This document shows, piece by piece, positions 3,354 to 63,508 of a stretch of 64,000 bases of DNA; within the stretch, counting starts at the first letter, position 1, and every line of letters begins with the position of its first letter. Source of the stretch: a phage; sequence record PZ386973.1, one strand, 5' to 3'. The notes under the pieces are model-generated. The model made no database searches and was not told where the DNA came from. It was given only the letters and a program-made list of their open reading frames with translations. The position numbers were made by a program, and so were the translations under genes.

Positions 3354-3522
3354 TTTTGTTCCTTTCTAAGAACGTATCATACTCAACCGTATCAACATAT
3401 ATGACACCATAGTCATCGGATTTATAGTCCATTTCCCACAGCTCACAGCGATAACACCAACTACCATCCGCCCATACAAATATATCATCGGGATGTGTAT
3501 ATACAGATTTAACTATAGACAT
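3340..3522 (-). CDS. hypothetical small protein
   Basis: Track ORF, overlaps its neighbours in operon fashion. Confidence 0.35.
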   Translation of the reverse strand: MSIVKSVYTHPDDIFVWADGSWCYRCELWEMDYKSDDYGVIYVDTVEYDTFLERNKNGNK

Positions 3523-4337
3523 ATTTGTTTCCCTGGCATATAAGGTCTACCCTCTAAATGAGCTTCCACACGAGCAATAAAATCAGGATCACTGAAAGCA
3601 TCTACCGCACCTTTACTCCAGTAAGGGACCCCACGTTCTTCCAGCTGGTACATCTCACTACGAGTCATACCTTGATAGCCGGGCTCCGCTGCTAGAGCAC
3701 TATCATAGTAGTTAACAACCATAAGTTTCGCAGCAGTCAAATTAAGAACAGGAAATAATTCCCAGTAGAAGTTAATTACTTGGTTAGAGCAACCAACTAC
3801 AATAATCATATCTTGACTGGTAATACTGTCAAAAACATTATACATTTCTGCGTATGCAGGAGCATGCTCTCCAAAGAAGATTACATTAGGTTTAGCCCAT
3901 TTATAATCATCCGGATCGATAGAACTGTATCCTACATCAATAATCCGTTTATTGCTACTATTGTATCTATCAGCTACAACAACCTCTTTTAAATATCCGT
4001 GAATGTGCAGAATGTCACTATGTGGAACGCCAGCACGCTCAATAAGGTCATCAACGTTGGTAGTCAAGTTTACTACTTGACCAGGGTATTGTTTATGCCA
4101 TTCACCAATACGCAAATGCGCAAGATTGGGTTCGACAGTTTTTAGCTCTTCACGACGCTTGTTATAAAACATATGGGTTTTATGGTAAAAATTACCACGA
4201 AAGGCATGAATATTACATACTTCTTCTAGATCATAATCATCCCACAATGCTTTACCACTAGCAGTATCAGTACGAAAAGCTCGTACACCACTTTCAACGC
4301 TCAAACCTGCACCGCTAATAATAATTACTCTACGCAT
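3513..4337 (-). CDS. Sir2-like NAD-binding protein
   Basis: GAGLSVESGVRAFR (sirtuin GAGIS..SG motif), TTNVDDL (TQNID-like), HIHG catalytic His; no Zn-ribbon cysteines seen. Confidence 0.6.
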   Translation of the reverse strand: MRRVIIISGAGLSVESGVRAFRTDTASGKALWDDYDLEEVCNIHAFRGNFYHKTHMFYNKRREELKTVEPNLAHLRIGEWHKQYPGQVVNLTTNVDDLIERAGVPHSDILHIHGYLKEVVVADRYNSSNKRIIDVGYSSIDPDDYKWAKPNVIFFGEHAPAYAEMYNVFDSITSQDMIIVVGCSNQVINFYWELFPVLNLTAAKLMVVNYYDSALAAEPGYQGMTRSEMYQLEERGVPYWSKGAVDAFSDPDFIARVEAHLEGRPYMPGKQICL

Positions 4338-4551
4338 TTTTCACCTGTTCTCTGAAGTTTTGCCCAATGCTGTCTAATAGCTCAGCTAATTCTTTATTGC
4401 CTTTCTCCATTAAGGTATTAGCAATAACTTCTAGCATAGTAGCACAGGATTCAACACCATCCTTATAGCCAGTTTCCCACTGCTGCATTAATGCATTTTC
4501 CAAAGCGGCATTTAAACCATTATCTGGTAGCATCGGCTTCGAGAATGCCAT
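4330..4551 (-). CDS. hypothetical protein
   Basis: Track ORF. Confidence 0.4.
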   Translation of the reverse strand: MAFSKPMLPDNGLNAALENALMQQWETGYKDGVESCATMLEVIANTLMEKGNKELAELLDSIGQNFREQVKNA

Positions 4552-4723
4552 AAAGTTTCTCCTCTAGTTCCATAACACGATTTTCATAAGAGGCACGCAA
4601 CTTTTCAATTGCCAGCGCACGCACTGTAACCTCATTAGAATTAATAGCTAATTGGGCCAGGTCTTCTGTTTCCATACGTCCATTGTAAATTAAGCGATAT
4701 TTAAGATGTTTTACGTTTTTCAT
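4520..4723 (-). CDS. hypothetical protein
   Basis: Track ORF. Confidence 0.4.
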   Translation of the reverse strand: MKNVKHLKYRLIYNGRMETEDLAQLAINSNEVTVRALAIEKLRASYENRVMELEEKLYGILEADATR

Positions 4724-4732
4724 TCTTGTTCC

Positions 4733-5014
4733 TTAGTTCTGTACTGTAAATTTATTCTTATCACAGTAAGCATAATAATACCCATACATACGATAAATTT
4801 TCACAGCCTTAGTAGACCCCTTCGATTCTTCATAATCAATCCAGAGCCACTTGTCTTTACCTACATAATGTACCCGAAACTTCTTAACTTTCTTATCATT
4901 CCATGTTGCAACAACACGACGATAATCAAATCCGCCCAACCAATCTAGAGCCTTACGTTCTTCACTAGGCTCTCCAAGATGGGAGACATCTACTTTAGGA
5001 AGCAATTCGCTCAT
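4733..5014 (-). CDS. hypothetical protein
   Basis: Track ORF. Confidence 0.4.
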   Translation of the reverse strand: MSELLPKVDVSHLGEPSEERKALDWLGGFDYRRVVATWNDKKVKKFRVHYVGKDKWLWIDYEESKGSTKAVKIYRMYGYYYAYCDKNKFTVQN

Positions 5015-48361: not shown

Positions 48362-49092
48362 TGAAAGATTTGGCTGTAAAGTTTAAGAATATTCTAGCCC
48401 TCGCTAAGGGGGCTGATCATCGCTGTTTCTCTGATTTAACCACTGAAGAGAAACATGCAGTAATGTTTGTTTGCGAAATGTTCCCAGCTAGATGGGAGGG
48501 TGGTAAGATTAAGTATGATAACAAAGCAGCAAAAGCTGACCTTGCTTATTCTTACGTTGATATGAATAAACTCCTAAAGTCTTTAGACCCCACTGCTAAA
48601 GGTCACATGGGAAACTATATTCATGTTATCATTGATGAACCTCTCCCGGCTTATAGAGAAACATCCGCTAGAGAAGCATTAGAAGCATATCCAGAACAAT
48701 TATACATTCCGCCTAAGAAATGTAAGTTCGATCATCTTCCAGCGTTAGCATTTGAAACTAGTATCACGTTTGAAGATATTTATAGAACGATTGGAGCTGT
48801 AGTAGCACGGATTGCAGTGGCACATCATCGTGGCATAGAACTTACTACAGCGGAAGATTATATTCTATACGCTATCCATGATGAAAAGGACTCCTTCAAA
48901 CGTCTAATGGATGCTCTAGGATTAGGCAGTCTCACAGCGCTTGTGCTTAACCAGGCTCCTAGAACCAAGCGTTATGCAAAAGGATCTATTACTCTTGAAG
49001 AAACAGGGTCTACATCTTCATTCCTTGCTACATATATTTATTTAGCATCTAAAGGAATCTATCTAAAGGCTAGAAAGAATGTCACTATATAA
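48361..49092 (+). CDS. hypothetical protein
   Basis: Track ORF. Confidence 0.45.
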   Translation: MKDLAVKFKNILALAKGADHRCFSDLTTEEKHAVMFVCEMFPARWEGGKIKYDNKAAKADLAYSYVDMNKLLKSLDPTAKGHMGNYIHVIIDEPLPAYRETSAREALEAYPEQLYIPPKKCKFDHLPALAFETSITFEDIYRTIGAVVARIAVAHHRGIELTTAEDYILYAIHDEKDSFKRLMDALGLGSLTALVLNQAPRTKRYAKGSITLEETGSTSSFLATYIYLASKGIYLKARKNVTI

Positions 49093-49435
49093 AGTATATA
49101 TTCTTGCAAACAGGGATCTGACAAAGATCCCTAAGAGAACAAAGATCGGTATTAGCATGAATCCACATAATAGGATTCAAACACTAAACTTAGATAAGAT
49201 AGTCTATCGAGGTTTTGACGATTTATACGTGTATGGGGTCTATGAAACCCATAATCCTAGAGATCTAGAAGCCGCTGCTCATATCTACTTTAAGAAATAC
49301 CGTTGTAATTTAAAGGGATTCGAAGGATGTACAGAGTTCTTTGATATTCACCCACAACTTGCAGAACGATTCCTATTAAATACAGGAGCCAAGAAGATTT
49401 ACGATCCCAATACCAATCTCGAAGGAGATGTATAA
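49079..49435 (+). CDS. T5orf172/GIY-YIG-like domain protein
   Basis: YKVYILANRD...KIGISMNPHNRIQTL resembles the T5orf172 pattern as recalled. Confidence 0.45.
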   Translation: MSLYKVYILANRDLTKIPKRTKIGISMNPHNRIQTLNLDKIVYRGFDDLYVYGVYETHNPRDLEAAAHIYFKKYRCNLKGFEGCTEFFDIHPQLAERFLLNTGAKKIYDPNTNLEGDV

Positions 49436-49452
49436 ACATTAACAAAATCTTC

Positions 49453-49482
49453 TTGACAACTCATTGCGGCACATGTTATAAT
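49453..49482 (+). promoter_or_regulatory. consensus sigma70 promoter (TTGACA-N18-TATAAT) reading into the repeat field
   Basis: Canonical hexamers; no ORF downstream for about 1.4 kb. Confidence 0.5.
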
Positions 49483-49835
49483 AATCTCATAGATTAAAAA
49501 CAACTCTTGTTTTGAACTCTAGGGGCGATGATTATTACACTTAGTATTACGTCTATACGTTGCGACAGCACGAGTATAGATCTAATTACTAAGTCTTCCG
49601 TAATACTCACGCGCCCCACGAGTAAGCTCTCATGAAATGGGGGGACTATTTACTTTTAAAATATATGAAAATATTTAAAGGCAATATCTGTGTTCAAGAT
49701 GGTACACCTGTTGCCGCTCTTCTGCTAGGATGGCACAACACTTTCTTCTAGACTCCTAAGTTTATCACGAAATACCACACTTCTAGTGGGCGGTTCTCCT
49801 AAGTTTCTAGGAACATATACTAGGCGGTTAATACA

Positions 49836-49880
49836 GGGCGGTTATAGGGAGGGCGGTTATAGGGAGGGCGGTTATTTCTA
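49836..49880. repeat. tandem repeat, 3 copies of GGGCGGTTAT(A)GGGA
   Basis: Three adjacent copies read directly. Confidence 0.8.
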
Positions 49881-49917
49881 GAAGACATTTTTTGAAAACA
49901 CATTTCCAGAAATTACT

Positions 49918-50517
49918 GTCGGATTTGCACACTGCATTTCTAGAAATTTATGGTCGGATTTGCACAAACGCCTAAGTTTTTAGGAACATATAATCTCTTG
50001 AAAATAGCAGCATTATTTCGGGCCGAAGGCCCATGATTGCCTGAGTTTTTAGAGCCACAGAAATTTTCCCTTGTCAAGCTATTTTGCCACATTTAGCTAA
50101 TAAAATTTTACTTTTTCTGCACCTATCTCAAATCTTCTCCAATTATCTCAACTCTTCCCCAAAATCCCGGCAAATCTGGTGCTCCGCACCAACCATGCGC
50201 CCACATCCCTCTAGTCCCCAAAATTTCTTCGTTCTCTCAACTTCTCTCCAAACCTATACAATCACACACCCTCTAATCGAAGTCATAAAAATCTTGTCGG
50301 ATTCGCACATCTTAATCCTAGAAAAACCGTGTCGGATTTGCACATACCCCACAGGATTCGAACGCAGTTCGTGATTGCTGGAGTTTTTGGGAAAATTCAT
50401 TGTCGGATTCGCACACTATAAAAATTTTTAGGGTCGGATTTGCACACTACCAAAAATTGTCGGATTCGCACATACACGCCAGCACGTAACCCGTGGAGCA
50501 AATGTCGGATTTGCACA
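49918..50517. repeat. iteron array: 8 direct copies of GTCGGATT(T/C)GCACA
   Basis: Copies at 49918, 49963, 50296, 50331, 50402, 50433, 50459, 50504, all same orientation. Confidence 0.85.
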
Positions 50518-50522
50518 AAAGC

Positions 50523-50700
50523 GCAGGGCAATTGCCCTGCTAGTTTGAATGCGAATAAAAATGAGAATCATTATCATTTAAAAAGCGGAATGCGAATGAG
50601 AATCATTATCATTTACGAAAGGGAATGAGAACTATTCAGGAAGTGAAACGATTCTCATTTAGATAGTGAAATGCGAATGATAATGATTCGCATTTAAAAA
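50523..50700. repeat. 18-bp palindrome GCAGGGCAATTGCCCTGC plus direct and inverted copies of a GAATGCGAATGAGAATCATTATCATTTA unit
   Basis: Palindrome 50523-50540; repeat copies around 50547-50615 and inverted or palindromic copies 50646-50696. Confidence 0.75.
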
Positions 50701-50727
50701 CGGAAGTGAGAAACACTGTTATTTAAG

Positions 50728-50819
50728 TTATCCACAGACTTATCAACAGCACGATTTGACTTGACAAAATCCTAGCCATTTTGAGGCGTTATTAACAGAC
50801 TTATCCACAGCTTATCCTA
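50728..50819. promoter_or_regulatory. cluster of DnaA-box-like 9-mers (TTATCCACA and variants)
   Basis: TTATCCACA at 50728 and 50801; variants TTATCAACA, TTATTAACA, TTATCCTAC. Confidence 0.6.
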
Positions 50820-50835
50820 CTGTATAAATATACAG
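50796..50835. repeat. left arm of a 40-bp inverted repeat (partner 54682-54721)
   Basis: CAGACTTATCCACAGCTTATCCTACTGTATAAATATACAG; reverse complement matches the right arm at 39 of 40. Confidence 0.8.
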
Positions 50836-50986
50836 TATTCCTACGCAGTGAATAGTTCTAATATAGCGTTAAAACGTCCTAGATCGCATTCTAACGCGTT
50901 TAATTTTGGTGGGGATACTAAAACAAGGGGGTATTTATCTGGAGGGAGAAAAACGGGGATCAGATCCCCGTCGATTATTAGAAAAG

Positions 50987-51100
50987 AGGGCAATTATCCC
51001 GCTTTGCCATTTCGCGCCACTCATCCTGATGCCTAGACTTGCGACGGCGTACTAAAAACCGTTTATACCAGTGATTAAACCATCGTTTCATAAATCCTCC
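50987..51100 (-). CDS. small basic protein
   Basis: ATG after GAGGAGG; 37 codons; below track threshold. Confidence 0.3.
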
Positions 51101-51291
51101 TCAGGTAGTCGATGCGTGATCTTCTCCTCTTCCCCATAGGAATCGACCAAATGTTGATAATAACCATCGGCATCATAAATCACTTTATCATATTCGCCAC
51201 GCTCGACCGCTTGCCGATTCTCAGGTGTATCCGGCACATAGAAAACATCAACCATTGTGGTAGTTTTGGTCACAATAATTTTATTGCTCAT
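51088..51291 (-). CDS. hypothetical acidic protein
   Basis: Track ORF. Confidence 0.4.
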   Translation of the reverse strand: MSNKIIVTKTTTMVDVFYVPDTPENRQAVERGEYDKVIYDADGYYQHLVDSYGEEEKITHRLPEEDL

Positions 51292-51514
51292 AATAACGCT
51301 CCGTTATTAAAAATCCCCATATATTCCCGGCCAAATTTTACTAGTAACATAAGTTACTATCCCGGCAACAATTACGCTATAAACTATTAATAAGGTAAAC
51401 ATTAAACCAGACATAATAACTCCTAGTAAATATATTTTTGCCAATAGTGGCGAACGTTATCGCCACCAGCGGAATCATTAGCTGCCTCAGCATTACCAAC
51501 GAAAATATATAATC

Positions 51515-51874
51515 TCATTGTGCCACCTTTCGGAATGCTGTTTCAATACTATCCGCAGTGGATTGAATATATGCGCCTTTCATTATCAGGCGCTCAGTGC
51601 ACACCTTACGGAAGATATTAATAAAATCATCTTCATTTTCTGCGATTAATGCCTCCCCCATGACCTGAATATCACAAGATGCGAAAGTCAAAAATTGAAA
51701 CGCTAGTTCACGGGCAACGACCGCATTGATTTTATAATGCGCCTTGCCCTCATAAATATTAATAACGCCCTTGTAAGCCGGGGAAAGCTGATTTAAGTAG
51801 TTTGCTAACACTGCCGGACGGCAATTAGTAACAAAGCGATTGCCTTCATAAATTATCATTTGCATAGCTCCCAA
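51515..51874 (-). CDS. hypothetical protein
   Basis: Track ORF. Confidence 0.45.
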   Translation of the reverse strand: MGAMQMIIYEGNRFVTNCRPAVLANYLNQLSPAYKGVINIYEGKAHYKINAVVARELAFQFLTFASCDIQVMGEALIAENEDDFINIFRKVCTERLIMKGAYIQSTADSIETAFRKVAQ

Positions 51875-52101
51875 ATAGTTCCGCCGATAATCATTAGCTG
51901 ACTAATGATTATCAGAATAAAACCGATTGAAGGCAGGACGCCCCAATATTGGAACGCCCTTTTAATTTGTTGAATCATTTGTTAGCCTCCCAATTAGATA
52001 GCCAGATAATAACATAAAGATCCCCAGTAAAAGGGGATCATTTTTAAATAAGGTGGCGGTAAAACCGCCAACCATTGCAAGGGTAATAATAATAACGCTT
52101 T

Positions 52102-52314
52102 TCATAGTACCCCACGAAAGGCCGCGTAAAAGGTGGCAAAGTGTTTAACCGTTTCAGCGATCACGTTGCCGCGCTTATCAAATTTCTTTTCGGTAACACG
52201 AAAGGCATTTTTGTTACGTGCTACATATTCGATTTTACAATCAGGACGCTCAAACGTGTTTACATCCACCAGCTTAAAGCCTTTCGAACGTGCAAGAGAA
52301 ACGTTGCGAATCAT
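52102..52314 (-). CDS. hypothetical basic protein
   Basis: Track ORF. Confidence 0.4.
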   Translation of the reverse strand: MIRNVSLARSKGFKLVDVNTFERPDCKIEYVARNKNAFRVTEKKFDKRGNVIAETVKHFATFYAAFRGVL

Positions 52315-52317
52315 TTT

Positions 52318-52470
52318 TTATTCTCCTTTACTAGTCATGCAGCCCAGCAGATAAGAAAATGCAGCGATACCCGCGCCAATAATAACCGCGTGGACACCGA
52401 AAGCTATTGCAAAAAGGGATAAAATAGCGCCCAAGATACCTGCTAGAATAGCTCGAAAAATAACCATTTT
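52318..52470 (-). CDS. small hydrophobic membrane peptide
   Basis: 50 codons, two hydrophobic segments; one of several sub-threshold TM mini-ORFs between 51303 and 52470. Confidence 0.35.
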   Translation of the reverse strand, partial: KMVIFRAILAGILGAILSLFAIAFGVHAVIIGAGIAAFSYLLGCMTSKGE

Positions 52471-52513
52471 CATTCTCCTAGTTAGTGGGGCGAAAGTAAC
52501 GCCCCATTATTAA

Positions 52514-52746
52514 TTACATTAAAACAATTTTAGCGGCTTGTTTTTTGGTGCAATGTTCCGCTTTCAGGGTATCCAGCAAAAAGCCAGCCGTTTGCTGATC
52601 GATTTTATCGGCATTATATAGTTCCTGAATGGTGTTATAGGTTTTAGCAATGCCGAACTCCTGCACCATTTCATGAATGATGACGCGATTAGATACCCAA
52701 CCTTGCGCGGTGAACAGATGACTAGCAGAAGAATATGCAACCATTT
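52514..52746 (-). CDS. hypothetical protein
   Basis: Internal ATG with GGAGG RBS. Confidence 0.4.
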
Positions 52747-52811
52747 TAAGCCTCCAAATTTTTGGGAAAATTTTCAACCGTCCTCAAACGGTGTAAAGGC
52801 ATTATAACAAA

Positions 52812-52838
52812 AAAGGCCGCCATAATAGGCGGCCTTTA
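52812..52838 (-). terminator. intra-operon terminator/attenuator hairpin
   Basis: AAAGGCCGCCATAATAGGCGGCCTTT with a T-run on the minus strand. Confidence 0.45.
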
Positions 52839-52850
52839 CAAAACTTTACA

Positions 52851-53345
52851 TTAAACTACTTGTAAGGATTCAACATTGAAACATCGTTTTAATTCGTCAT
52901 GCAAAACAGCGTATTCCTCCCATCGGGTACTATCAGGAATATAAACAAGCTGTTTTAATCGGTTTGCATATATTACCGCTTTGTTATCAATTATCTCGAC
53001 GCCACCATATTTAATAACTAATTTCATGACGGAATTAATAGGATCGCCGCCGTTTACATATGTGCCGGACTTACTCAATTGATAATGATAAAGGCTTGCA
53101 TACACGTTGTCATTTTCAACCCATTCGCCAGTATCCTCATCTTCATACCCATCGCTACCAAAACGAGAAGCATTATCAATAGCCATTTCCTGAGCGAAAG
53201 CGTCGAGATCTGTACCAGCAGGAACAAAATATTCTTCGGTGTTCCCTTCCCCGCAGTACCCAGTATGGCAATCGACCAAAATGATCATATCGTGTTTTGC
53301 CGTGCTCACTTCTCCCAGTGAGAAGCCATATTTTTCCTCAGCCAT
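52851..53345 (-). CDS. hypothetical acidic protein
   Basis: Track ORF. Confidence 0.5.
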   Translation of the reverse strand: MAEEKYGFSLGEVSTAKHDMIILVDCHTGYCGEGNTEEYFVPAGTDLDAFAQEMAIDNASRFGSDGYEDEDTGEWVENDNVYASLYHYQLSKSGTYVNGGDPINSVMKLVIKYGGVEIIDNKAVIYANRLKQLVYIPDSTRWEEYAVLHDELKRCFNVESLQVV

Positions 53346-53410
53346 TTATTATCCTCCTATTAATTAATCAGGGAATAGTAAAGCGGGGAAACAATCCCCG
53401 CTAGATATTA

Positions 53411-54415
53411 TTATTCGCTTTCGGTGCTAGTGGTGAAGGTAGAAATATCGATACCTTTTACCATTTCATCAATCATTTCAGCGATGTTAAAACTTTGCAC
53501 CATTTCCAACATTGCCGCTTCCATAGCTGCCCCTGCTACCGCTTTCGCTTTCTGATTGCTTGGGGCATACTGGTCAACCGCTACGCTCAGCAGGTTGGCA
53601 ATTACTACTCGACCAATCGGCGTATCAATATAACCTTTAATCATGAACGGTGCTTTTTTAGCCGCTACTTTCGTAATTTGAGTCAGTGCAATTTTACCCG
53701 CTTCCAGTTTTGCAGCGTTTACAACAGCGGATTTATTAGCGGCAACAATATTAGCGATCTTGGTCATAGTATTTTTTCCTTTGTTTTCAGTAGTTTGAGT
53801 ATTAACGCTTTGAGTGTTAGAATTTACAACATGGTTTTCTGTATTGTCAACTGGTTTTAGCGTAAATCCAGCATTTGCAACATTTGATTCATTCCCATAC
53901 TCTAAATAATCGCTAGGGATCAACATGTTACCCGTTGACTTTTCAAAACACAAAACACCAGTTGTTTCTATTGCGTAACTATCCGCACCTTTATAGTTTG
54001 ATGATAGTTCACGCCAGATACTATTTAGTAACGATTCGACACTATCAAGCCTGATATTATTTATTTTTGTTGCTATTACCTGCTCTTTTTCTTGCACGTT
54101 ATATAATCGCGCAATGTAACCATTATTCGGCTCACTGTAACCAACAATGATAAAATCAATATCAGTTCCCCGACTGTTACGGAAAACGTGATAATCACGG
54201 TTGAAAATTACTAGTACCCTTGTCTGGTCTAGTAGTAATATGAAATCATTGACTGAATAATGAGTATCATTACTGTCTAAAATTTCATCATGAATCTTTT
54301 CAACCATGCTAGCGGTATGTTGTACACTTGCCGCGCTACTACCATCTAGCAGGTTGCGCAAACTACCCTTTACAATAGTTGCGTTTGCTGGTACTGCAAT
54401 TCTAGTAAAAGACAT
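53411..54415 (-). CDS. hypothetical two-domain protein with low-complexity linker
   Basis: Track ORF; first gene of the minus-strand cassette. Confidence 0.5.
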   Translation of the reverse strand: MSFTRIAVPANATIVKGSLRNLLDGSSAASVQHTASMVEKIHDEILDSNDTHYSVNDFILLLDQTRVLVIFNRDYHVFRNSRGTDIDFIIVGYSEPNNGYIARLYNVQEKEQVIATKINNIRLDSVESLLNSIWRELSSNYKGADSYAIETTGVLCFEKSTGNMLIPSDYLEYGNESNVANAGFTLKPVDNTENHVVNSNTQSVNTQTTENKGKNTMTKIANIVAANKSAVVNAAKLEAGKIALTQITKVAAKKAPFMIKGYIDTPIGRVVIANLLSVAVDQYAPSNQKAKAVAGAAMEAAMLEMVQSFNIAEMIDEMVKGIDISTFTTSTESE

Positions 54416-54681
54416 TCTCTTGTCTCCCTCGTTAATCGGTGAGTGAATGATAAAGGTATTTTCTTTCTAGGGGCAAATATTATTTTACCTTTTTATTTTC
54501 CTTGCCTAACGCCTAGTTTTATGCTAACCGCGCAGCGGTGCAATAAAGAGCAAACCACGGCGAAGCCACCAGGCCGACGCATCGAGGCTTTACTTTAATA
54601 TTACCCCACCGCATTTAGCTCGTTAGAAAGCGTTTTAGGCGGCCTAAAATTGATTGCAGTTGTTAACACTACCTTTTTACC

Positions 54682-54721
54682 CTGTATATTTATACAGTAG
54701 GATAACCTGTGGATAAGTCTG
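54682..54721. repeat. right arm of the 40-bp inverted repeat (partner 50796-50835)
   Basis: CTGTATATTTATACAGTAGGATAACCTGTGGATAAGTCTG. Confidence 0.8.
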
Positions 54722-54789
54722 TGTAAAACTCCTTATATCGCCGCCTATCGTGTCAAATTATTTTGTGCTGTGGATAACGTTGTGGATAA
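54699..54789. promoter_or_regulatory. cluster of DnaA-box-like 9-mers (TGTGGATAA orientation)
   Basis: TGTGGATAA at 54708, 54769, 54781; TAGGATAAC at 54699. Confidence 0.6.
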
Positions 54790-55150
54790 CTTAAATGATA
54801 GTGGTTCTCACTTAGGCCGATAGTTTCTTATAGTTATTATTTCTATCGGTTACGATTTCTTATAATTATTATTTCTCACTAATTTATATGTATATTATAT
54901 ATTATAGAATAGTTAGTTGGCTAATGAGATTTTCCGTGATTAATAGTCTGCTAATAGTTTAAGCCGTTACAATCCACCAGCATGATTATCATCCTAGCAA
55001 TTATTAGTCTGCTATCTTTCCGATGCATACTAACAAATAAAAGTCAATTAATTTAGTTCATAAAATAAGTAGTTATCCACTGGAAAATAAAAGTCAAGTG
55101 GATAACTAGGAAAATTTCATTTTTGCTTTTGGGGATAAGTTATCAACAAG
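54790..55150. promoter_or_regulatory. AT-rich region with an inverted DnaA-box pair (origin-like)
   Basis: Long A/T-rich tracts; TTATCCACT at 55073 and AGTGGATAA at 55097; no ORF. Confidence 0.4.
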
Positions 55151-55493
55151 GCTAGAATGCGCCTAAAACGCCCTAGAATGCGATGAAAGTTTTAGTCATG
55201 CCATTGCATTGCCTACCCTCGTTTATCTCTACCACGAGCTTTTTAGGTTTTGTCAAGTAGGGCAAAGCAAATATAAATGAAAAAATTACTTGCCTATCTG
55301 CTATGTTTTGTGGTATTCGCGCGCCCGTTTCTTTTAATTTTAGTGCGCCGCGCCCAGGTCGCCGCACGCCGTCCGGTGAATCGTGTCTTTACATTTCTTT
55401 ACAAAAATAAGGTTGCGCCATTTTCGGGAATCCCCTATTATTTATCACGTAGGGCGGCAATGACGAACTACACGGCGGGAAGTTTACCGCCAC

Positions 55494-55532
55494 GCTCTTT
55501 AAAAATTGGGTACATCTTAAAGCCTATCGGCG
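55494..55532. repeat. left arm of an imperfect inverted repeat flanking ORF 55564-55767
   Basis: TGGGTACATCTTAAAGCCTATCGGC core; partner 55773-55813. Confidence 0.65.
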
Positions 55533-55563
55533 GTAAACTTATACATTATAAGGAATCGACGAT

Positions 55564-55767
55564 ATGAAACAAACTTTATTGATCACTGGCAAGCCTAGCA
55601 AGGCACTAGATAGCAAAACAAAAAATTTGTTGACAGTAGCGCAAAGATCGGTAAAATACCGATTCAAGCAATACAAGAAAGGCCGCCAGCAAGGTCTAGA
55701 AATGATCTGGCGAAATATTATGATTGACTTGAAAGAAAATCATAAAAAATCTCAAAAAATTGTTTGA
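55564..55767 (+). CDS. small basic protein flanked by inverted repeats
   Basis: Track ORF; AAGGA RBS; Lys/Arg-rich. Confidence 0.4.
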   Translation: MKQTLLITGKPSKALDSKTKNLLTVAQRSVKYRFKQYKKGRQQGLEMIWRNIMIDLKENHKKSQKIV

Positions 55768-55772
55768 CAACC

Positions 55773-55813
55773 TAGCCGATAGGTTTTAAGATGTACCCAG
55801 TTCGATAAGAGCG
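55773..55813. repeat. right arm of the inverted repeat flanking ORF 55564-55767
   Basis: GCCGATAGGTTTTAAGATGTACCCAG core. Confidence 0.65.
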
Positions 55814-55997
55814 ATAACTTGATAAAATTTGACGGTCGGTGCTTACCATAATGCATCCCGCCCCCTAACTGGGATATAGCGGCCTACGTGGAGTTCTTTA
55901 AATTGATTTAACTGGCGAGCGGATTGTTACTTATTACCTGCTACTGTTTTCTAGCAGGTAATGCGGAACAATCCTCAAATAACTAGGAGTTTATATT

Positions 55998-56249
55998 ATG
56001 CAAAACGTTATCACCGCGCCGAAAGTTGGTCAGTCTGTTTTTATTCCTTTCGTTACCAAAACGGATGAATTAACCGGAAAGGCCGAACGTATTAAAGGTG
56101 CGGCGCTTATGCCGTTTGATACAATCGACGCGGTATATGCTGAAAATGAACGCAGTAACAACGGCAAACCCGTTTTTAACGTTCGTGTTAAATCCGGCGA
56201 CGTTGTAAAGGTTGTTCAACGCAACGAAAAATGGGAAGCTGTATTATAA
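55998..56249 (+). CDS. hypothetical protein
   Basis: Track ORF after AGGAG. Confidence 0.45.
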   Translation: MQNVITAPKVGQSVFIPFVTKTDELTGKAERIKGAALMPFDTIDAVYAENERSNNGKPVFNVRVKSGDVVKVVQRNEKWEAVL

Positions 56250-56350
56250 TCTAGTGTTAACTTTATATTCCCCTGAAATATGGGGAATATAACGATTAAC
56301 ATTAAGTTAATCATTAAATCCCTTAAATTAAACAAATAGGAGTTTTTACC

Positions 56351-56758
56351 ATGACTAACGTTAAAACCGCAAAATTCGCTTGGAATGAAGAAAACACTCA
56401 GAAAGCTGTTTCTATGTACCAGCAGTTAATCAATGAAAACGGTTTAGATTTCGCAAATAGTGACGGCCTGAAAGAAATTGCAAAAGCAGTTGGCGCGGCT
56501 TCTCCCGTATCCGTTCGGTCAAAATTGACCAGCGCGAAAGCGTATCAGAAAAGCGATAAGCCGCGCAAAGTTGGCGGTGGTAGCTCAATCCGCAAAGCGC
56601 ATTATGTACGCGTTATTGCTAAACATGCTATTGATTCCGGCATTATCAAAGACGCCGATGATCTGGCAAGCCTTGAAAGTGCTAAACTTGAAACGCTGGA
56701 CGCCGTGGCGCAACTGTTAGGCGTTGCCGATGAAGTGAAACAAGCCGCAGGAGAATAA
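56351..56758 (+). CDS. pre-early-region protein, possible A2 counterpart
   Basis: Track ORF after AGGAG; sits immediately upstream of the A1-like gene; assignment by position and size only. Confidence 0.4.
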   Translation: MTNVKTAKFAWNEENTQKAVSMYQQLINENGLDFANSDGLKEIAKAVGAASPVSVRSKLTSAKAYQKSDKPRKVGGGSSIRKAHYVRVIAKHAIDSGIIKDADDLASLESAKLETLDAVAQLLGVADEVKQAAGE

Positions 56759-56846
56759 TTATATACATTGCCCTTCCTAGTGGGAGGGCAATAATATAAC
56801 TGTTTAGCGATAGTTATTTTCTTCCCTTAAATCAGGAGTTTTAAAA

Positions 56847-57044
56847 ATGATTTTCTTTCCTACTGAGTCATTAATTTTAGGCTTGTTTATTATGGCGGCC
56901 TCGTTATTACTCGCTTATTTTCAAAATGATTTAGATTCATATTATTTTAAACGTAAATCTAAGTTAGCAAAGCGTTTAGGTCTGATTTGTTTTATTGCCG
57001 CCGTTGCTTGTGGTGTTAGTTCTAGCCTTATGCCTTTAAATTAA
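56847..57044 (+). CDS. small membrane protein
   Basis: Track ORF with hydrophobic helices. Confidence 0.3.
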   Translation: MIFFPTESLILGLFIMAASLLLAYFQNDLDSYYFKRKSKLAKRLGLICFIAAVACGVSSSLMPLN

Positions 57045-57118
57045 TGTTGCAAATTATAACGCCTATTATTCAAGGCGTTATATTTGGCAATATTGCCGTT
57101 ATTAACTTAATCCCTTTA

Positions 57119-58798
57119 ATGGAGTTTATTACTATGATTATTTCCGCAGAAAAACAAACCGTTATCCTGAAAATGGCCGCTGACTTTAATTTCTATGGTA
57201 AACGTCTGCGCGCCACTAAACTGGAGGTCTGCGACGATATATCAAAAGCGGTCTACGATACAACAAAACACTCGACCGCTATCTGCGACTGGCTGGAAGC
57301 AAATAAACCAGTTAAACCGAAAGCGGCGAAAGTAGCAAAAGCCATTAAAAACGATGAGCGTCCAGAAGCGGCGGGGATTGTTTCTAGCACGGTTGAACAG
57401 TGGGAAGTAAAACAAGGCAAACGCTTTATTATTACGTCGATTCAGAATAATACTTTCCCGCATAAAAACTTTTTAGCCTCATTGGAAAAATTCGCTGAAT
57501 ATATCGGTGCTGATTTGCTTGTTTCTAAGTATATTTATAATAAAAACGGCTTCCAAAATGGCGAGGGTGCGGATGGAATCAAATATGATTCCGCGTTCGA
57601 TAAATATATTTGCAGCAAAAACGTGTTTTTAAATAACCGCCGTTTTGCTTTCATGGCTGAAATTAATGTTTTGCCAACAGCAGACTATCCGCTTTCTGGA
57701 TTCGCTGAAACTGCAACGGCGCTTAATCTGGAAGGTCTGGCAATCGGTCATGCTAAAATCACCGCTGAAAGCGTGCCAGCTCTCAAAGGTGAAGTAGTAC
57801 GCCGCATGTATTCAACCGGAACGGCAACGCTCAAAAACTACATTCAGCAGAAAGCAGGGCAAAAAGCGGAAGCGCTTCATAACTTTGGTGCGCTGATTGT
57901 CGAGTTCGACGAGGACGGGGAGTTTTTTGTTCGCCAGCTTGAAACTATGGATGAAAGCGGGGTGTTTTATGATCTGAATGTTTGCGCTACTCCCGCCGGA
58001 TGCTATGAAACAACGGGGCATGTTTTAGGCTTGCAATATGGTGACATACACGCCGAAAAATTGGATGATGATTGTGCCGTTGCGTCATGGGCTGGCGAAA
58101 ATAGCTTGCTTGATATTCTTAAACCAAAATATCAGTTTGTGCATGATGTGCATGATTTTACATCGCGCAACCATCACAACCGCGCTTCGGGTGTATTCCT
58201 AGCAAAACAATATGCCGCCGGACGTGATAAAGTTCTGGATGATCTTATCGATACGGGGCGCGTGCTGGAATCGATGGAACGAGATTTTAGCCAAACAATC
58301 ATTGTTGAATCTAATCACGATCTGGCGCTATCCCGCTGGCTTGATGATCGTAATGCTAACATTAAAGACGATCCAGCAAACGCGGAACTATATCACCGCC
58401 TGAATGCCGAGATTTATGGAGCTATTGCAGAAAAAGACGATACTTTCAACGTGCTAGATTATGCATTGCGCAAGGTTGCAGGTTGTGAGTTTAACGCCAT
58501 TTTCCTAACAACTGACCAATCATTTAAAATTGCAGGCATCGAGTGTGGCGTACACGGTCACAACGGCATTAACGGCAGCCGTGGCAATCCTAAACAATTT
58601 AAGAAATTGGGCAAATTGAACACCGGACACACTCACACCGCCAGCATTTACGGCGGGGTATATACCGCTGGCGTTGCTGGTAGTCTCGATATGGGTTACA
58701 ACGTTGGCGCGTCAAGCTGGACGCAAACGCATTTAATTACCTATGCAAACGGGCAGCGCACTTTGATCGATTTTAAGAATGGTAAATTCTTTGCGTAA
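57119..58798 (+). CDS. A1: A1-like pre-early protein with metallophosphoesterase domain
   Basis: GDIHA, GHNG and GHTHT metallophosphatase motifs; about 555 aa from the internal ATG; matches T5 A1 as recalled. Confidence 0.6.
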   Translation: MEFITMIISAEKQTVILKMAADFNFYGKRLRATKLEVCDDISKAVYDTTKHSTAICDWLEANKPVKPKAAKVAKAIKNDERPEAAGIVSSTVEQWEVKQGKRFIITSIQNNTFPHKNFLASLEKFAEYIGADLLVSKYIYNKNGFQNGEGADGIKYDSAFDKYICSKNVFLNNRRFAFMAEINVLPTADYPLSGFAETATALNLEGLAIGHAKITAESVPALKGEVVRRMYSTGTATLKNYIQQKAGQKAEALHNFGALIVEFDEDGEFFVRQLETMDESGVFYDLNVCATPAGCYETTGHVLGLQYGDIHAEKLDDDCAVASWAGENSLLDILKPKYQFVHDVHDFTSRNHHNRASGVFLAKQYAAGRDKVLDDLIDTGRVLESMERDFSQTIIVESNHDLALSRWLDDRNANIKDDPANAELYHRLNAEIYGAIAEKDDTFNVLDYALRKVAGCEFNAIFLTTDQSFKIAGIECGVHGHNGINGSRGNPKQFKKLGKLNTGHTHTASIYGGVYTAGVAGSLDMGYNVGASSWTQTHLITYANGQRTLIDFKNGKFFA

Positions 58799-58851
58799 TT
58801 AAATTATTCCCTAGCGGCTTGAAATATAGCCGCTATTACAGGAGTCAAAAA

Positions 58852-59109
58852 ATGAAAGTTACATTACCCAAAACATTGGACGAAAAAGTATTCATTTCAC
58901 CGGATGAAATGGAATCTGATAAAGTTTACAGCTTCGGGCCTATCCTAGCCGCCAAAACTAATACGGATGGAATTATTACAGTCGATTATCGTGATAATGA
59001 TGTTGTCCCCTTTGACGATGATGACGCTTTTTATGAATGGTTGAGCGATAATAATTTACCCGTAAATGGTGAATTAACGCCGTATCAAATGCAAATTATT
59101 ATTAAATAA
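58852..59109 (+). CDS. hypothetical acidic protein
   Basis: ATG 58852 after CAGGAG. Confidence 0.4.
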   Translation: MKVTLPKTLDEKVFISPDEMESDKVYSFGPILAAKTNTDGIITVDYRDNDVVPFDDDDAFYEWLSDNNLPVNGELTPYQMQIIIK

Positions 59110-59147
59110 ATTAAATCCCCTATTAAACTAATTGGAGTTTTATAAAT

Positions 59148-59540
59148 ATGAAAAAGCAAAATATCCCATTCGATCGCGCTCAGTCCTCAATTGTTCTGGT
59201 TTATTCTAATGGCGAACGTTACCACGTCGAGGCGGGGCATGTTATTGATGACCTATTAGATTTCAATGACGCTGTGCAGGTTACTACCTTTGCCTATACA
59301 CAAGGCAAACTAACCAGCCATATTAAGGCAAAAGGCGTTTATGTTGACACGGTGAAACAAGAAACGATTATCATCGATGCCGTAAAATCCGGCCTAGCCT
59401 TTGCAGTTGTCGCGCCTTGCCTCGCTTGCCTTGATGATCAATTGATTAGTGCAAAGGTCTACACATGTGCGGGGATTCGTTCTAGCGTATCCGGTGAGGA
59501 TGTTAGTTTTATCGCTGATGCGTTGGCTTATGGTCTTTAA
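59148..59540 (+). CDS. hypothetical protein
   Basis: Track ORF. Confidence 0.45.
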   Translation: MKKQNIPFDRAQSSIVLVYSNGERYHVEAGHVIDDLLDFNDAVQVTTFAYTQGKLTSHIKAKGVYVDTVKQETIIIDAVKSGLAFAVVAPCLACLDDQLISAKVYTCAGIRSSVSGEDVSFIADALAYGL

Positions 59541-59627
59541 TAGTTGATTGAACACAGCCCGCTGATAAAGTATCATTAGTGGGCTGGATTGAATTAACTT
59601 AATCCCTTAAATGGAGAATGCAACAAA

Positions 59628-60362
59628 ATGAATCAAGTTAAAACGAATATTACCCGTAATTTCCCGCATATTTCCCGCGTTATGATTTGGGATCTGGACG
59701 GCACTATCATTAATTCTTTCCATCGTGTAGCGCCTTGTTTTGATAGCGAGGGCAATTTAGATTTAAATAAGTATAAAAATGAAGCCTGCAAACATCATTT
59801 AATAATGCAGGATTCATTATTGCCATTAGTTGAATATATGCGCCAGTGCATGAATGACGCTAACACGCTAAACATTATTTGCACCGCTCGACTAATGAGC
59901 AAATCAGATTATTATTTCTTGCGTAAACAAGGATTGCGAGGGCGTGGAAATAGTAATATCCGCGTGTTTTCCCGCGATACCCTGCACAAATACTTTAAAG
60001 CTGATAAGGTTAGCGAAATATACCACAGCAAGGACGCAGTATATAAAAGCCATTATTTTGAATTATTTAAACAATTATATCCGAACGCTGATTTTACAAT
60101 GATTGATGATCATAAAGGCGTGTTAGCGGCGGCGGCATCATACGGATTTAAAACGCTAGACGCGCAAGCCGTTAATGATATTCTATCAATCGGTGTTACA
60201 TTGATTGGTGAAACCTTTATTGATGAATCGCTCGACGATGATAATGATTATCAGTTCCTGGCCGACCGCCTGCAATTATGTTGGGAAGGTATGACCGAGG
60301 AAGAACGCGCAGAATATAGTTGCAGCCCGCAACAATATATTGAGAAATTAAAAGTTGCGTAA
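59628..60362 (+). CDS. dmp: HAD-family 5'-deoxyribonucleotidase-like protein
   Basis: MIWDLDGTIINS (DxDGT motif I); 244 aa; matches T5 dmp as recalled. Confidence 0.6.
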   Translation: MNQVKTNITRNFPHISRVMIWDLDGTIINSFHRVAPCFDSEGNLDLNKYKNEACKHHLIMQDSLLPLVEYMRQCMNDANTLNIICTARLMSKSDYYFLRKQGLRGRGNSNIRVFSRDTLHKYFKADKVSEIYHSKDAVYKSHYFELFKQLYPNADFTMIDDHKGVLAAAASYGFKTLDAQAVNDILSIGVTLIGETFIDESLDDDNDYQFLADRLQLCWEGMTEEERAEYSCSPQQYIEKLKVA

Positions 60363-60380
60363 TAATTAAAGTTGAAATAG

Positions 60381-60417
60381 TTTCATCCTGCAATTAAAAT
60401 GGTTGCAGGATGAAACA
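60381..60417. terminator. bidirectional terminator hairpin
   Basis: GTTTCATCCTGCAA...TTGCAGGATGAAAC 14-bp stem between convergent genes. Confidence 0.55.
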
Positions 60418-60527
60418 ATTACCCTGCTAATAGTAACGGGGTGTGGCGGTTAGCAGACTAAGTATTTTCCCCCAACCCACTGGACACACCTCCATGTGTA
60501 ATCTTATGAAATTTGGCAAAAGGTTAA

Positions 60528-61720: not shown

Positions 61721-63508
61721 ATGGGTTTTTTCGCTGGAAAATATAGTGATGGTAAAACTGTATTATCACTAAACAAAGTGAATGGTGGGGATATTAATGC
61801 CCACAAAACTCCTAATGCCAATACTATATTTCACTCTGATATGCCATTTGTTCTAGTTGAGAGTACTTATGAAAGTGCACTTTCTAATGCTGGAAATGGC
61901 TTTTTTGTATGTCAGATGCCTTCTGTGATAGCTAACCTAAAAAGTAATGATCCTGGTAGGGTTATACTAACCGCTGTTGAGATAAATGGTACACATAGAG
62001 CTTTTCTTAACGGTACTCAATCCCAGGTTGGGCAATTTCTTGCATTTTTTGAAGATCCCCCTATTGGTAGGGCTGGTGCTGAACTAGGCCTTACGTCAGC
62101 TTTTGCATCTGGTAATAGTTTGGCACATGGTACTTACACTTATAACTCCAGTCTAGGCCATGAAGAGTCAATAGCTAGACAAGGTACTGGTGGTACTATA
62201 TCACAGGCTTCTGGATTTAACTTATACAGACCTGGAGGGGCATATGCCGGTGAAGCTATCGGTAGAGCATGGACTTTAGCAGGATTTCCAGCTGGAGCAT
62301 CTAAAGTATCGATAAATAGTGGTAATGTTGACTTCTGGCACCCTAATTGGCAAGCTCCTATAGGGGCTGGGAAAAGGGGTCATAATTGGTTTTATGTTTG
62401 TAATTCCAATATACGTGGGTATGCAGGTAAAAAAGGTACTACGCCAAGTAATGTTAGTGTCCTATATAATTCTTCAACCTATCCAAATAAGGTTTATGTA
62501 TGCAGAGGCTCGACATCTAACTTAGCATCACAAGCAGCAAAGAAGATGTATGTGCAGGATAGTTATAATGTTACTCCTACCAAAGTTATTTGGTATGTGC
62601 TGAATCTTAGATACTCTAATGGTAGTATGAGCGTTGCTAGTAATCCCTTTACTGGATCCGATATTCTTATAAGCCCCTCTAATTTTACTATAAAAGGTGT
62701 TAGTCTTCCAAATACTAGTTACAAATTCATTAATCAGAATGCTTTTGGTAACTTATCGTCTAGACCTGATATGGAGTACATTGGTAATAACGTTGCTTAT
62801 ACCGGAGTCTTTGGAGACACTACAGCAAGATGCGAGATTGTAGGTTCTAACAAAGGCTCTTTATGGTCTCCGGTAAATTATGGGGGCTCTAAATCTCAGA
62901 TAAGTATTTACAAATTTTCTGCTGGTAAACAATGGTATGTTAATTCCAATAATAATACTATAGGTAATGAGCATGGGGTTGTTTGGGGACCTTCTTCAGT
63001 ACCTTTACGATTACTGCCAAATAACGTAGCTAGTACTTACATAGGTGATGATATAAACCCCTCTTATCCAGGTACAGGAAATAAGTACGTAGGGCTATCT
63101 ACCGTAGGCCTTGGATTACCTAATGCAAACTCTACAGTAATCCTAACTACTGAGGTAGTTGCCGGAAATCTTAATACAGCAGGAGGTCCTATACGAACAT
63201 ATGGTGGCACTGCGTGGCAGGTGCAAGGTAGAAGACAACAAAGTTATACAGGTGGTGATGGGGTATTCCATCAAATATTAACTTTACCACCTAATCAGTT
63301 GGTGCCCTTCCATACTACAGCTTCTTATAGCTATACACAGCAGTGGGCTAGTCGACCTGATGATTTAACATTTACTAGAAGTGGATTTATTTATACTATT
63401 AAAAATTTGGGTAACGGTAACGCTGAGTTAGGTGTAGTTATACATGCAAATGAATCCGCCGCAGTTTTCTTACCGAGATTACGAGTAACAGTTCAACGCC
63501 TTACCTAA
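61721..63508 (+). CDS. receptor-binding tail protein-like (pb5/oad-like)
   Basis: 595 aa, Gly/Asn/Ser/Thr-rich; position next to the lipoprotein gene. Confidence 0.5.

What the first reader, a model, noticed from the sequence alone, without database searches (positions are those of the whole stretch)
49440..50870. Non-coding repeat field with 8 iterons, tandem repeats and palindromes, reminiscent of an injection-stop-signal locus
About 1.4 kb with no credible ORF holds 8 same-orientation copies of GTCGGATT(T/C)GCACA (49918-50517), three tandem GGGCGGTTAT(A)GGGA units (49836-49880), paired CCTAAGTTT(T)TAGGAACATATA motifs, an 18-bp perfect palindrome (50523-50540) and direct and inverted GAATGCGAATGAGAATCATTATCATTTA copies. 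A consensus TTGACA-N18-TATAAT promoter at 49453 reads into it. From memory, T5 has a comparable repeat-rich non-coding locus at the end of its first-step-transfer DNA.
Basis: partly seen in the sequence, partly recalled or inferred. Interest (0 to 1): 0.7.

Follow-up and report, generated by a model that had tools for sequence, protein, structure and literature searches.

The report
Known T5 injection-stop repeat region
This is the already catalogued repeat-rich non-coding stretch at the inner end of the terminal repeat of T5-like phages, where DNA injection pauses; it is ordinary for this phage family, although a small unannotated structured RNA gene appears to sit at its left edge.

Summary

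The window is a T5-like phage, with its + strand equal to the T5 minus strand. The field aligns at 85-97% identity with the stretch that T5 GenBank records annotate as "injection stop signal". One record already lists nearly every element: direct repeat D (the iteron), palindrome J, direct repeat C, the DnaA-box inverted repeats, and the 7.9% nick. So the finding is already known.

Three refinements:
- The field straddles the inner end of the terminal repeat (about window 50052). Its left 600 bp lie in unique early DNA.
- The eight iterons are not the eight DnaA boxes of Davison's model. Those lie at 50728-50809 and 54708-54789.
- The first ~175 nt after the promoter (49488-49662) are not repeats. 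They fold as a discrete rod-shaped RNA with a U tail, found in eight sequence types with covariation, unannotated in the records examined and absent from Rfam.

How the stop works is still unresolved in the 2026 literature.

The parts
49453..49482 (+). Sigma-70 promoter: TTGACA, 18-nt spacer, TGn extended -10, TATAAT.
   Evidence: 12 of 12 consensus match. Both hexamers are kept at the same distance upstream in all eight sequence types of the downstream element.
49488..49662 (+). Candidate small structured RNA gene: a 5' mini-hairpin, a ~100-nt imperfect rod (49521-49617), then a 3' hairpin and U tract. It is not part of the repeat field and is unannotated.
   Evidence: RNA fold z = -6.0. All sequence types tested fold at z -3.9 to -6.6 on this strand, with a more stable fold (lower energy) than the opposite strand in every one. 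Covariation: 19 pairs changed on both sides, against 3-5 in slid controls, and 0 of 500 shuffles reach that. One copy in the window. No Rfam family.
49672..49752 (.). Non-coding block of about 80 nt, about 90% conserved. Function unknown.
   Evidence: Per-column conservation over 27 sequences. It is shared by all Escherichia and Salmonella types but absent from Klebsiella phage Roth37.
49787..49880 (+). Five GGCGGTT copies, three of them as the tandem AGGGCGGTTATAGGG. Interleaved with TCCTAAGTTTCTAGGA-type inverted-repeat sites (49798-49819, and again at 49971-49992).
   Evidence: The GGGCGGTT copies are also kept in Roth37.
49918..49966 (+). Two iterons (T5 direct repeat D copies 8 and 7) lying outside the terminal repeat.
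50016..50071 (.). GGGCCGAAGGCCC hairpin, and the inner (right-hand in T5) end of the terminal repeat at about 50052|50053.
   Evidence: The repeat ends annotated in T5 (two records), MM-1 and Kenya-K15 map to 50052, 50051 and 50070. This is the best-conserved part of the field, 0.90-0.95.
50123..50252 (+). Pyrimidine-rich stretch with three TATCTCAA(N)TCTTC(N)CCAA copies (T5 direct repeat A).
   Evidence: family D5. GC skew is -0.33 here. AY587007 annotates direct repeat A copies 2 and 3 at the matching place.
50296..50517 (+). Six iterons (T5 direct repeat D copies 6 to 1), all in the same orientation, spaced 26-71 bp.
50520..50521 (+). Position homologous to the T5 major single-strand interruption (the 7.9% nick), A|GCGC on the window + strand.
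   Evidence: T5 annotations mapped through alignment A1 and read directly. The context AAGCGCAGGGC is conserved in all loci checked. The nick itself cannot be seen in sequence.
50523..50540 (.). Perfect 18-bp palindrome (T5 palindrome J). On the - strand it is also terminator-like.
50544..50712 (.). Nested direct and inverted GAATGCGAATGAGAATCATT repeats (T5 direct repeat C and palindromes E to I). The estimated end of first-step-transfer DNA falls at about 50570.
   Evidence: As single-stranded DNA, 50515-50720 folds at z = -7.45. The shear point 9618 is taken from Davison and mapped by offset from palindrome J.
50704..50835 (+). The 132-nt IRD'-spacer-IRC' arm. It holds two DnaA-box pairs, each pair 3 bp apart: TTATCCACA/TTATCAACA at 50728-50748 and TTATTAACA/TTATCCACA at 50789-50809.
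   Evidence: The arrangement matches Davison's description.
50949..50970 (-). Rho-independent terminator that closes the last pre-early operon (T5 palindrome C).
   Evidence: T5 feature 9275-9296, mapped to the window.
54682..54813 (-). Distant inverted partner arm, IRC-spacer-IRD (T5 Repeat Region 2), with four more DnaA boxes.
   Evidence: 132 nt, 79% complementary to 50704-50835. Boxes at 54708, 54720, 54769 and 54781.

Best explanation
The field is the orthologue of the T5 'injection stop signal' region, which Davison calls Repeat Region 3. It is a conserved, untranslated and probably untranscribed stretch of about 1.3 kb. It lies between the terminator of the last pre-early operon (50949-50970) and a small early-side transcription unit (49453-49662), and it straddles the inner end of the ~10.4-kb terminal repeat (about 50053-60486).

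Shown here:
- Homology to the T5 region.
- Position relative to the pre-early genes and the terminal-repeat end.
- The motif catalogue.
- Non-coding status.
- Family-wide conservation.

Inferred mechanism:
- DNA enters from the terminus at 60486 toward lower coordinates, and transfer halts after about 9.9 kb. At that point the DnaA-box arm (50704-50835) and the palindrome-rich direct-repeat-C module have just reached the cell.
- The halt needs no phage protein synthesis, so it must come from the DNA itself together with pre-existing host or virion factors.
- The likeliest form is a nucleoprotein and structural roadblock. Host DnaA would bind the two paired-box arms 3.8 kb apart. The nested palindromes beside the nick could extrude hairpins. 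The same-orientation iterons and GGCGGTT sites would bind a further, unidentified factor.
- A1 and A2, made from the entered DNA, then release the block.
- The best-conserved core (49860-50160) probably also marks the terminal-repeat end for genome maturation.
For: Identity of the locus:
- 456 T5-like phage records match.
- The alignment to T5 shows 85-97% identity across 49900-51100.
- T5 records annotate iss, the 7.9% nick and every repeat family at the matching positions.
- A2, A1 and dmp homologues are at 56351-60362.
- T5 base 1 maps to window 60486, and terminal-repeat ends map to 50051-50071.

DnaA boxes: six of the window's ten TTWTNCACA boxes fall in the two 132-nt arms, as pairs 3 bp apart. 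This is as Davison described for 25 phages.

Conservation without coding.

Two kinds of module: the palindromic part folds at z = -7.45 as single-stranded DNA, while the iteron part around the repeat end folds at z = -0.23.

Literature: the stop occurs without protein synthesis and needs A1 and A2 to resume. Full ejection into FhuA proteoliposomes argues for a host factor. The mechanism is still called poorly understood in 2026.
Against: - No element here has been shown by mutation to stop DNA transfer. 'iss' is a positional label taken from blender-shear mapping.
- DnaA binding is untested, and half of the boxes deviate from consensus.
- The iterons are poor DnaA boxes. The positions that vary between genera are ones DnaA needs, and the invariant parts are TCGGA and GCACA.
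- About 600 bp of the field, including two iterons and all the GGCGGTT copies, lie outside the terminal repeat and beyond the stop point. They would still be outside the cytoplasm during the pause, so they probably serve another function.
- The three T5 records disagree on the terminal-repeat end: 10139 and 10219 against 9749.
Confidence: 0.85

Rival explanations
1. Part of the field, especially 49860-50160, is the recognition and processing site for the inner end of the terminal repeat. In a concatemer, terminase must cut here and the repeat must be duplicated. The nearby strong promoter would play a role like transcription across the concatemer junction in T7. This can coexist with the stop function.
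For: Terminal-repeat ends of three phages, annotated independently, fall within 20 nt of each other at 50051-50071. This is the most conserved part of the field, 0.90-0.95 (0.97 against T5). Two iterons and the GGCGGTT repeats lie outside the repeat, where a stop signal has no obvious use. The T7 analogy comes from general knowledge.
Against: No T5 terminase site has been defined. One T5 record places the repeat end 470 bp away, at the nick. No similar motif set was looked for at the other end of the repeat (about 60486).
Confidence: 0.3
2. The field is a replication origin. It has same-orientation iterons for an initiator, DnaA boxes, A+T-rich and strand-asymmetric stretches, and a strong promoter giving transcriptional activation or a primer RNA.
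For: The field has 8 iterons, 4 local DnaA boxes, a pyrimidine-rich stretch and a consensus promoter with a structured transcript. Davison himself notes the likeness to oriC.
Against: Electron-microscopy mapping places T5 origins near the middle of the genome, and replication genes are not expressed during the pause. Iteron spacing is irregular (26-343 bp), not helically phased. No initiator-like gene is adjacent. The cumulative GC skew turn here is explained by convergent genes.
Confidence: 0.1
3. The region is coding. Several GenBank records of relatives annotate many 30-70 aa 'hypothetical proteins' across it.
For: MM-1 carries 13 small CDS here, and other records carry 5 to 9.
Against: None of the window's 12 ORFs is intact across 26 relatives. 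Indels of 1 and 10 nt interrupt the longest. Conservation follows the repeat motifs, not reading frames. T5 reference records annotate no CDS here.
Confidence: 0.02

Closest known systems
Phage T5 injection stop signal (iss) region, also called Repeat Region 3 of the left terminal repeat (Heusterspreute 1987; Wang 2005, GenBank AY587007; Davison 2020, bioRxiv 10.1101/866236)
   Same: It is homologous sequence (85-97% identity) in the same genomic position. The same motif families occur in the same order: direct repeats D, A and C, palindrome J, the nick context, IRD'-spacer-IRC' with paired DnaA boxes, and a distant IRC-spacer-IRD partner.
   Different: The window has 8 rather than 9 copies of direct repeat D; the outermost copy is replaced. 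It has a few 10-30 nt indels. It has a full set of eight boxes, where T5 has seven. The element just beyond the field, after the promoter, is of a different sequence type from T5's.
E. coli oriC and other DnaA-box clusters
   Same: There are several TTATCCACA-type boxes, closely paired, next to A+T-rich DNA.
   Different: No unwinding element or DnaA-trio was identified. The boxes sit in two inverted 132-nt arms 3.8 kb apart. The position does not fit the mapped T5 origins.
Iteron-type origins of plasmids and phage lambda
   Same: There are multiple same-orientation 14-16 bp repeats with DnaA boxes nearby.
   Different: The spacing is irregular, there is no adjacent initiator gene, and the iterons span a terminal-repeat boundary.
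T7 concatemer junction (terminal-repeat processing helped by transcription from a nearby promoter). From general knowledge.
   Same: A strong promoter in unique DNA points into a terminal repeat, close to the repeat's boundary.
   Different: It uses the host sigma-70 polymerase. The transcript appears to terminate 390 nt before the boundary. No processing data exist for T5.
Rod-shaped abundant small RNAs such as adenovirus VA RNA or bacterial 6S RNA. These are comparators only for the candidate RNA at 49488-49662.
   Same: The size is similar (~170 nt), the shape is a long imperfect hairpin with a conserved base and a variable apex, and the promoter is very strong.
   Different: There is no sequence or covariance-model match to any Rfam family. 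Neither expression nor a partner has been shown.

Membership tests
T5 iss / Repeat Region 3 | Lies at the inner end of the ~10-kb terminal repeat of a T5-like genome, downstream of the pre-early genes dmp, A1 and A2. | tested here: met
   A2, A1 and dmp homologues are at 56351-60362. T5 base 1 maps to 60486. The repeat end maps to 50051-50071.
T5 iss / Repeat Region 3 | Sequence homology to the T5 interval annotated as iss (NC_005859 9140-10149). | tested here: met
   Alignment A1 maps that interval to window 51105-50122, with 73-97% identity per 100-nt bin.
T5 iss / Repeat Region 3 | The catalogued repeat set: direct repeat D iterons, palindrome J, direct repeat C with palindromes E to I, direct repeat A, and IRD' and IRC'. 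| tested here: met
   checked against the AY587007 feature table.
T5 iss / Repeat Region 3 | Eight DnaA or DnaA-like boxes in four pairs 3 bp apart, split between IRD'-spacer-IRC' and a distant IRC-spacer-IRD. | tested here: met
   Boxes are at 50728/50740, 50789/50801, 54708/54720 and 54769/54781. The arms are 132 nt and 79% complementary.
T5 iss / Repeat Region 3 | The major single-strand nick at about 7.9%, beside palindrome J. | not testable with these tools
   The sequence context A|GCGCAGGGC is conserved at 50520|50521. A nick cannot be read from assembled sequence.
T5 iss / Repeat Region 3 | Untranslated. | tested here: met
   No ORF is intact across 26 relatives.
T5 iss / Repeat Region 3 | Acts in cis to halt DNA transfer until A1 and A2 are made. 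| not testable with these tools
   Even for T5 this rests on shear mapping, not on mutants.
Iteron-type or DnaA-dependent replication origin | Regularly phased iterons next to an initiator gene and an unwinding element, at a mapped start of replication. | tested here: not met
   Spacings are 26, 31, 35, 35, 45, 71 and 343 bp. No initiator-like neighbour was found. T5 origins map mid-genome according to Davison. An unwinding element was not specifically searched for.
Any Rfam RNA family (for the element at 49488-49662) | Covariance-model score at or above the family's gathering threshold. | tested here: not met
   The best hits are far below threshold: 19.7 bits against 48, and 26.8 against 70.

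The most novel reading that the evidence does not exclude
The consensus promoter at 49453 drives a discrete, previously unannotated structured RNA of about 175 nt (49488-49662). It sits at the boundary between the early region and the terminal repeat in T5-like phages.

The locus is a single copy at a fixed position. It occurs in at least eight sequence types, including one in a Klebsiella phage, that share three things:
- the promoter;
- a 5' mini-hairpin;
- the base of a 100-130 nt rod, followed by a 3' hairpin and U tract.

The interior of the rod has been replaced outright between types while helicity is preserved.

The function could be a protein-binding or decoy RNA made in large amounts early in infection. 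Alternatively it could act in cis on the neighbouring repeat field, for example in priming, R-loop formation or processing of the repeat end. Expression was not shown here, so a DNA-level hairpin is not excluded.
Probability: 0.4. Interest if true: 0.55.

Novelty: already known. Interest (0 to 1): 0.27.

Why it matters
The repeat field marks where T5-like phages pause genome delivery, a phenomenon described in the 1960s. Recent papers still call its mechanism poorly understood. Finding it again in one more T5-like genome adds no new principle.

This check does add three things:
- A coordinate-level parts list. It separates modules that form DNA secondary structure from modules that look like protein-binding sites, and it separates what lies inside the terminal repeat from what lies outside it.
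- The point that the iterons are probably not DnaA sites.
- A candidate RNA gene next door that annotation pipelines miss in hundreds of deposited genomes. If it is expressed, it would be a new abundant phage RNA, and the T5 system to study it is readily available.

Tried and rejected
- Rfam search of 49000-51500, then of 49470-49770 at E up to 10. Only sub-threshold chance hits came back, such as a plant miRNA model hitting the palindromic direct-repeat-C region.
- Search for an antisense target of the candidate RNA in the 64-kb window. Only chance-level matches of 10-18 nt were found.
- Search of 5,426 E. coli genomes for a host look-alike of the RNA. No match.
- Covariance model R1, to look for paralogues. 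There is only the one copy in the window. The model reaches types A and L017 mainly through the conserved ends, and it does not reach the T5 or Roth37 types.
- A peptide reading of the rod (35-aa ORF at 49528-49635) and of the 39-aa ORF at 49632-49751. These are intact in 5 and 2 of 26 relatives, so they were rejected.
- Reading the iterons as weak DnaA boxes. ATTTGCACA matches 8 of 9 positions of TTWTNCACA. This was made unlikely by the Klebsiella-phage variants, which change the T positions but keep TCGGA and GCACA.
- GC-skew evidence for an origin. The turn at 48.4-49.2 kb coincides with convergent gene orientation.
- Three broad literature searches were badly specified and returned irrelevant papers (and in part 35). 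Davison 2015 is not held in the library.

Full report

- GTCGGATTYGCACA occurs eight times without mismatch, always on the + strand, between 49918 and 50517. Shuffled sequence gives 0.38 matches even at two mismatches.
- The repeat finder returns the AGGGCGGTTATAGGG tandem (49835-49879), the CCTAAGTTT(C/T)TAGGAACATATA pair, the direct and inverted GAATGCGAATGAGAATCATT copies (50544-50712), and the palindrome around 50523-50540.
- The promoter scan finds one perfect 12/12 site, TTGACA-N18-TATAAT at 49453-49482, with a TG extended -10.

**2. What the window is.** A 1.8-kb query matches 456 phage records, almost all T5-like phages of Escherichia and Salmonella.

- Matches lie at 8.5-10.7 kb on the minus strand of genomes that start at the left terminus. 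So the window + strand is the T5 minus strand.
- Downstream ORFs are homologues of A2 (56351-56758), A1 (57044-58798) and the dmp phosphatase (59628-60362). A receptor-binding tail protein follows at 61721-63508.
- T5 base 1 maps to window 60486.
- The window therefore comes from an assembly with one copy of the terminal repeat, which spans about 50053-60486.

**3. Identity of the field.**

- NC_005859 annotates 'injection stop signal (iss)' at 9140-10149. It places the left terminal repeat end at 10219 and a 'major DNA single-chain interruption' at 9748/9749.
- The pairwise alignment and coordinate transfer put these at window 51105-50122, 50052 and 50520|50521. Identity per 100 nt is 0.73-0.97 from 49900 to 51100.
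- AY587007 carries a detailed feature table:
  - Palindrome J is the 18-bp palindrome.
  - 'Major single-stranded nick 1, 7.9%' lies beside palindrome J. It reads A|GCGCAGGG on the window + strand.
  - Direct repeat C copies 1-4 and palindromes E to I are the GAATGCGAATGAGAATCATT family.
  - Direct repeat B and inverted repeats D' and C' hold the DnaA boxes.
  - Direct repeat A is the pyrimidine-rich repeat.
- Davison's comparison of 25 T5-like phages calls this 'Repeat Region 3'. He notes that it overruns the repeat end by 270 bp, lists nine direct repeat D copies, and describes eight DnaA boxes in pairs 3 bp apart. These are shared between IRD'-spacer-IRC' and a distant IRC-spacer-IRD.
- The window shows exactly this. 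A 132-nt inverted repeat links 50704-50835 and 54682-54813, and six of the window's ten consensus boxes lie in those two arms.

**4. Conservation and coding.**

- In the 14 T5-like loci checked, fetched from viral contigs, the iterons, the palindrome and the nick context keep their order and spacing. Further loci from viral and metagenome collections were used for the later comparisons.
- A Klebsiella T5-like phage keeps iteron variants of the form TCGGA(T/A)(T/A)TGCACAT, and also keeps GGGCGGTT copies.
- None of the twelve ORFs in the field survives across 26 relatives. One-nt and ten-nt indels against T5 break the longest.
- The many tiny CDS annotated here in some GenBank records are therefore probably spurious.

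**5. Anatomy relative to DNA entry.**

- Terminal-repeat ends annotated independently in T5 (two records), MM-1 and Kenya-K15 map to 50052, 50051 and 50070. A third T5 record puts the end at the nick.
- DNA enters from 60486 toward lower coordinates. The order of arrival is:
  1. the pre-early genes;
  2. the IRC-spacer-IRD arm;
  3. more pre-early genes and their terminator (50970-50949);
  4. the IRC'/IRD' DnaA-box arm;
  5. the direct-repeat-C palindromes, with the estimated shear point at about 50570;
  6. palindrome J and the nick;
  7. six iterons;
  8. the pyrimidine-rich stretch;
  9. the repeat end;
  10. two more iterons and the GGCGGTT repeats.
- As single-stranded DNA, the palindromic module 50515-50720 folds far better than shuffles (z = -7.45). 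The iteron module around the repeat end does not (z = -0.23).
- The field thus combines a structure-prone module at the stop point with arrays that look like protein-binding sites.
- The stretch 49860-50160, centred on the repeat end, is the most conserved at 0.90-0.95.

**6. Mechanism.**

- From the literature, the pause needs no phage protein synthesis and resumes only with A1 and A2. Ejection into FhuA proteoliposomes is complete, which points to a host factor. Davison proposes membrane-bound DnaA on the eight boxes.
- Papers from 2026 still describe the mechanism as poorly understood.
- I adopt a roadblock made of bound protein and DNA structure as the best-supported reading, and I mark it as inference.
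- I add that the iterons are unlikely to be DnaA sites.
- I also add that the part outside the repeat more probably serves repeat-end processing.
- An origin of replication is a weaker rival. The iteron spacing is irregular, there is no initiator neighbour, T5 origins map elsewhere, and the skew turn is explained by convergent genes.

**7. The element after the promoter.**

- T5 and the window are only 43-49% identical over 49500-49700. Yet the window sequence 49485-49670 folds at z = -6.0 as RNA.
- Across the fetched loci there are seven discrete sequence types, plus an eighth in Klebsiella phage Roth37.
- All types keep the promoter, a 5' mini-hairpin, a 100-130 nt rod and a 3' hairpin with a U tract.
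- Sense-strand z-scores are -3.9 to -6.6. The sense strand has the lower folding energy in all eight sequences tested, and the better z-score in seven of them.
- In an alignment of four related types, 19 pairs change on both sides while staying paired. Slid controls give 3-5, and shuffles give 7.3 +/- 2.0, with 0 of 500 reaching the observed value.
- Within the T5 type, three double changes and three changes that keep a standard or wobble pair leave 99.4% of cells paired.
- A covariance model finds one copy only in the window.
- There is no Rfam family, no E. coli homologue and no target in the window.
- In the listed rows of a search that matched 284 phage records, nearly all show no feature under the match. 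The T5 feature tables are empty between direct repeat D copy 9 and ORF018.
- I found no paper describing it, within the limits of the held library.
- Expression is not shown, and a DNA-level hairpin remains possible.

**8. Verdict.** The locus is already known, so interest is low to moderate. The residual novelty lies in the candidate RNA and in the separation of the field into modules inside and outside the terminal repeat.

Noticed in passing
window 49488-49662 (+): A rod-shaped structured RNA candidate lies directly after the consensus promoter. It has eight sequence types across T5-like phages, shows covariation, is a single copy, has no Rfam match, and is unannotated in the deposited genomes examined.
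   Followed up: yes
window 49672-49752: An ~80-nt block between the RNA candidate and the GGCGGTT repeats is about 90% conserved across Escherichia and Salmonella T5-like phages. It is more conserved than the RNA itself. It has no conserved ORF or obvious hairpin, and it is absent from Klebsiella phage Roth37.
   Followed up: partly
window 60486|60487: T5 base 1 maps here, and a receptor-binding tail protein gene follows at 61721-63508. So the window crosses the junction between the genome's left terminus and the right end of the unique region. This indicates an assembly with a single terminal-repeat copy.
   Followed up: partly
window 49079-49435 (+): A 118-aa GIY-YIG/T5orf172-like ORF (homing-endonuclease type, and shorter than the 236-position profile of its best-matching PHROG family) sits directly upstream of the promoter. 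The upstream gene differs between phages that carry different RNA types, which hints at cassette exchange driven by homing.
   Followed up: no
L003 (MM-1) 3022-4743; also records listed: Some GenBank records annotate 5 to 13 tiny 'hypothetical proteins' across this non-coding field. The window's own ORFs across the same field are not conserved in 26 relatives, so those small CDS are probably over-calls.
   Followed up: partly
L001, L038 and L039 (the three T5 records): The records disagree on the end of the left terminal repeat. It is 10219 and 10139 in two of them (the same sequence position) but 9749 in AY692264, which is exactly the 7.9% nick.
   Followed up: no
window 55493-55531 / 55775-55813: A 39-nt inverted repeat, 85% complementary, lies in another untranslated stretch of the terminal repeat. 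It is probably Davison's Repeat Region 1 (IRA/IRA').
   Followed up: no
L042 (Klebsiella phage Roth37) 1287-1400: The iteron persists as ATCGGATTTGCACAT, ATCGGAAATGCACAT, ATCGGATATGCACAT and GTCGGATATGCACAT. The invariant parts are TCGGA and TGCACAT, which suggests a two-part binding site for a factor other than DnaA.
   Followed up: partly
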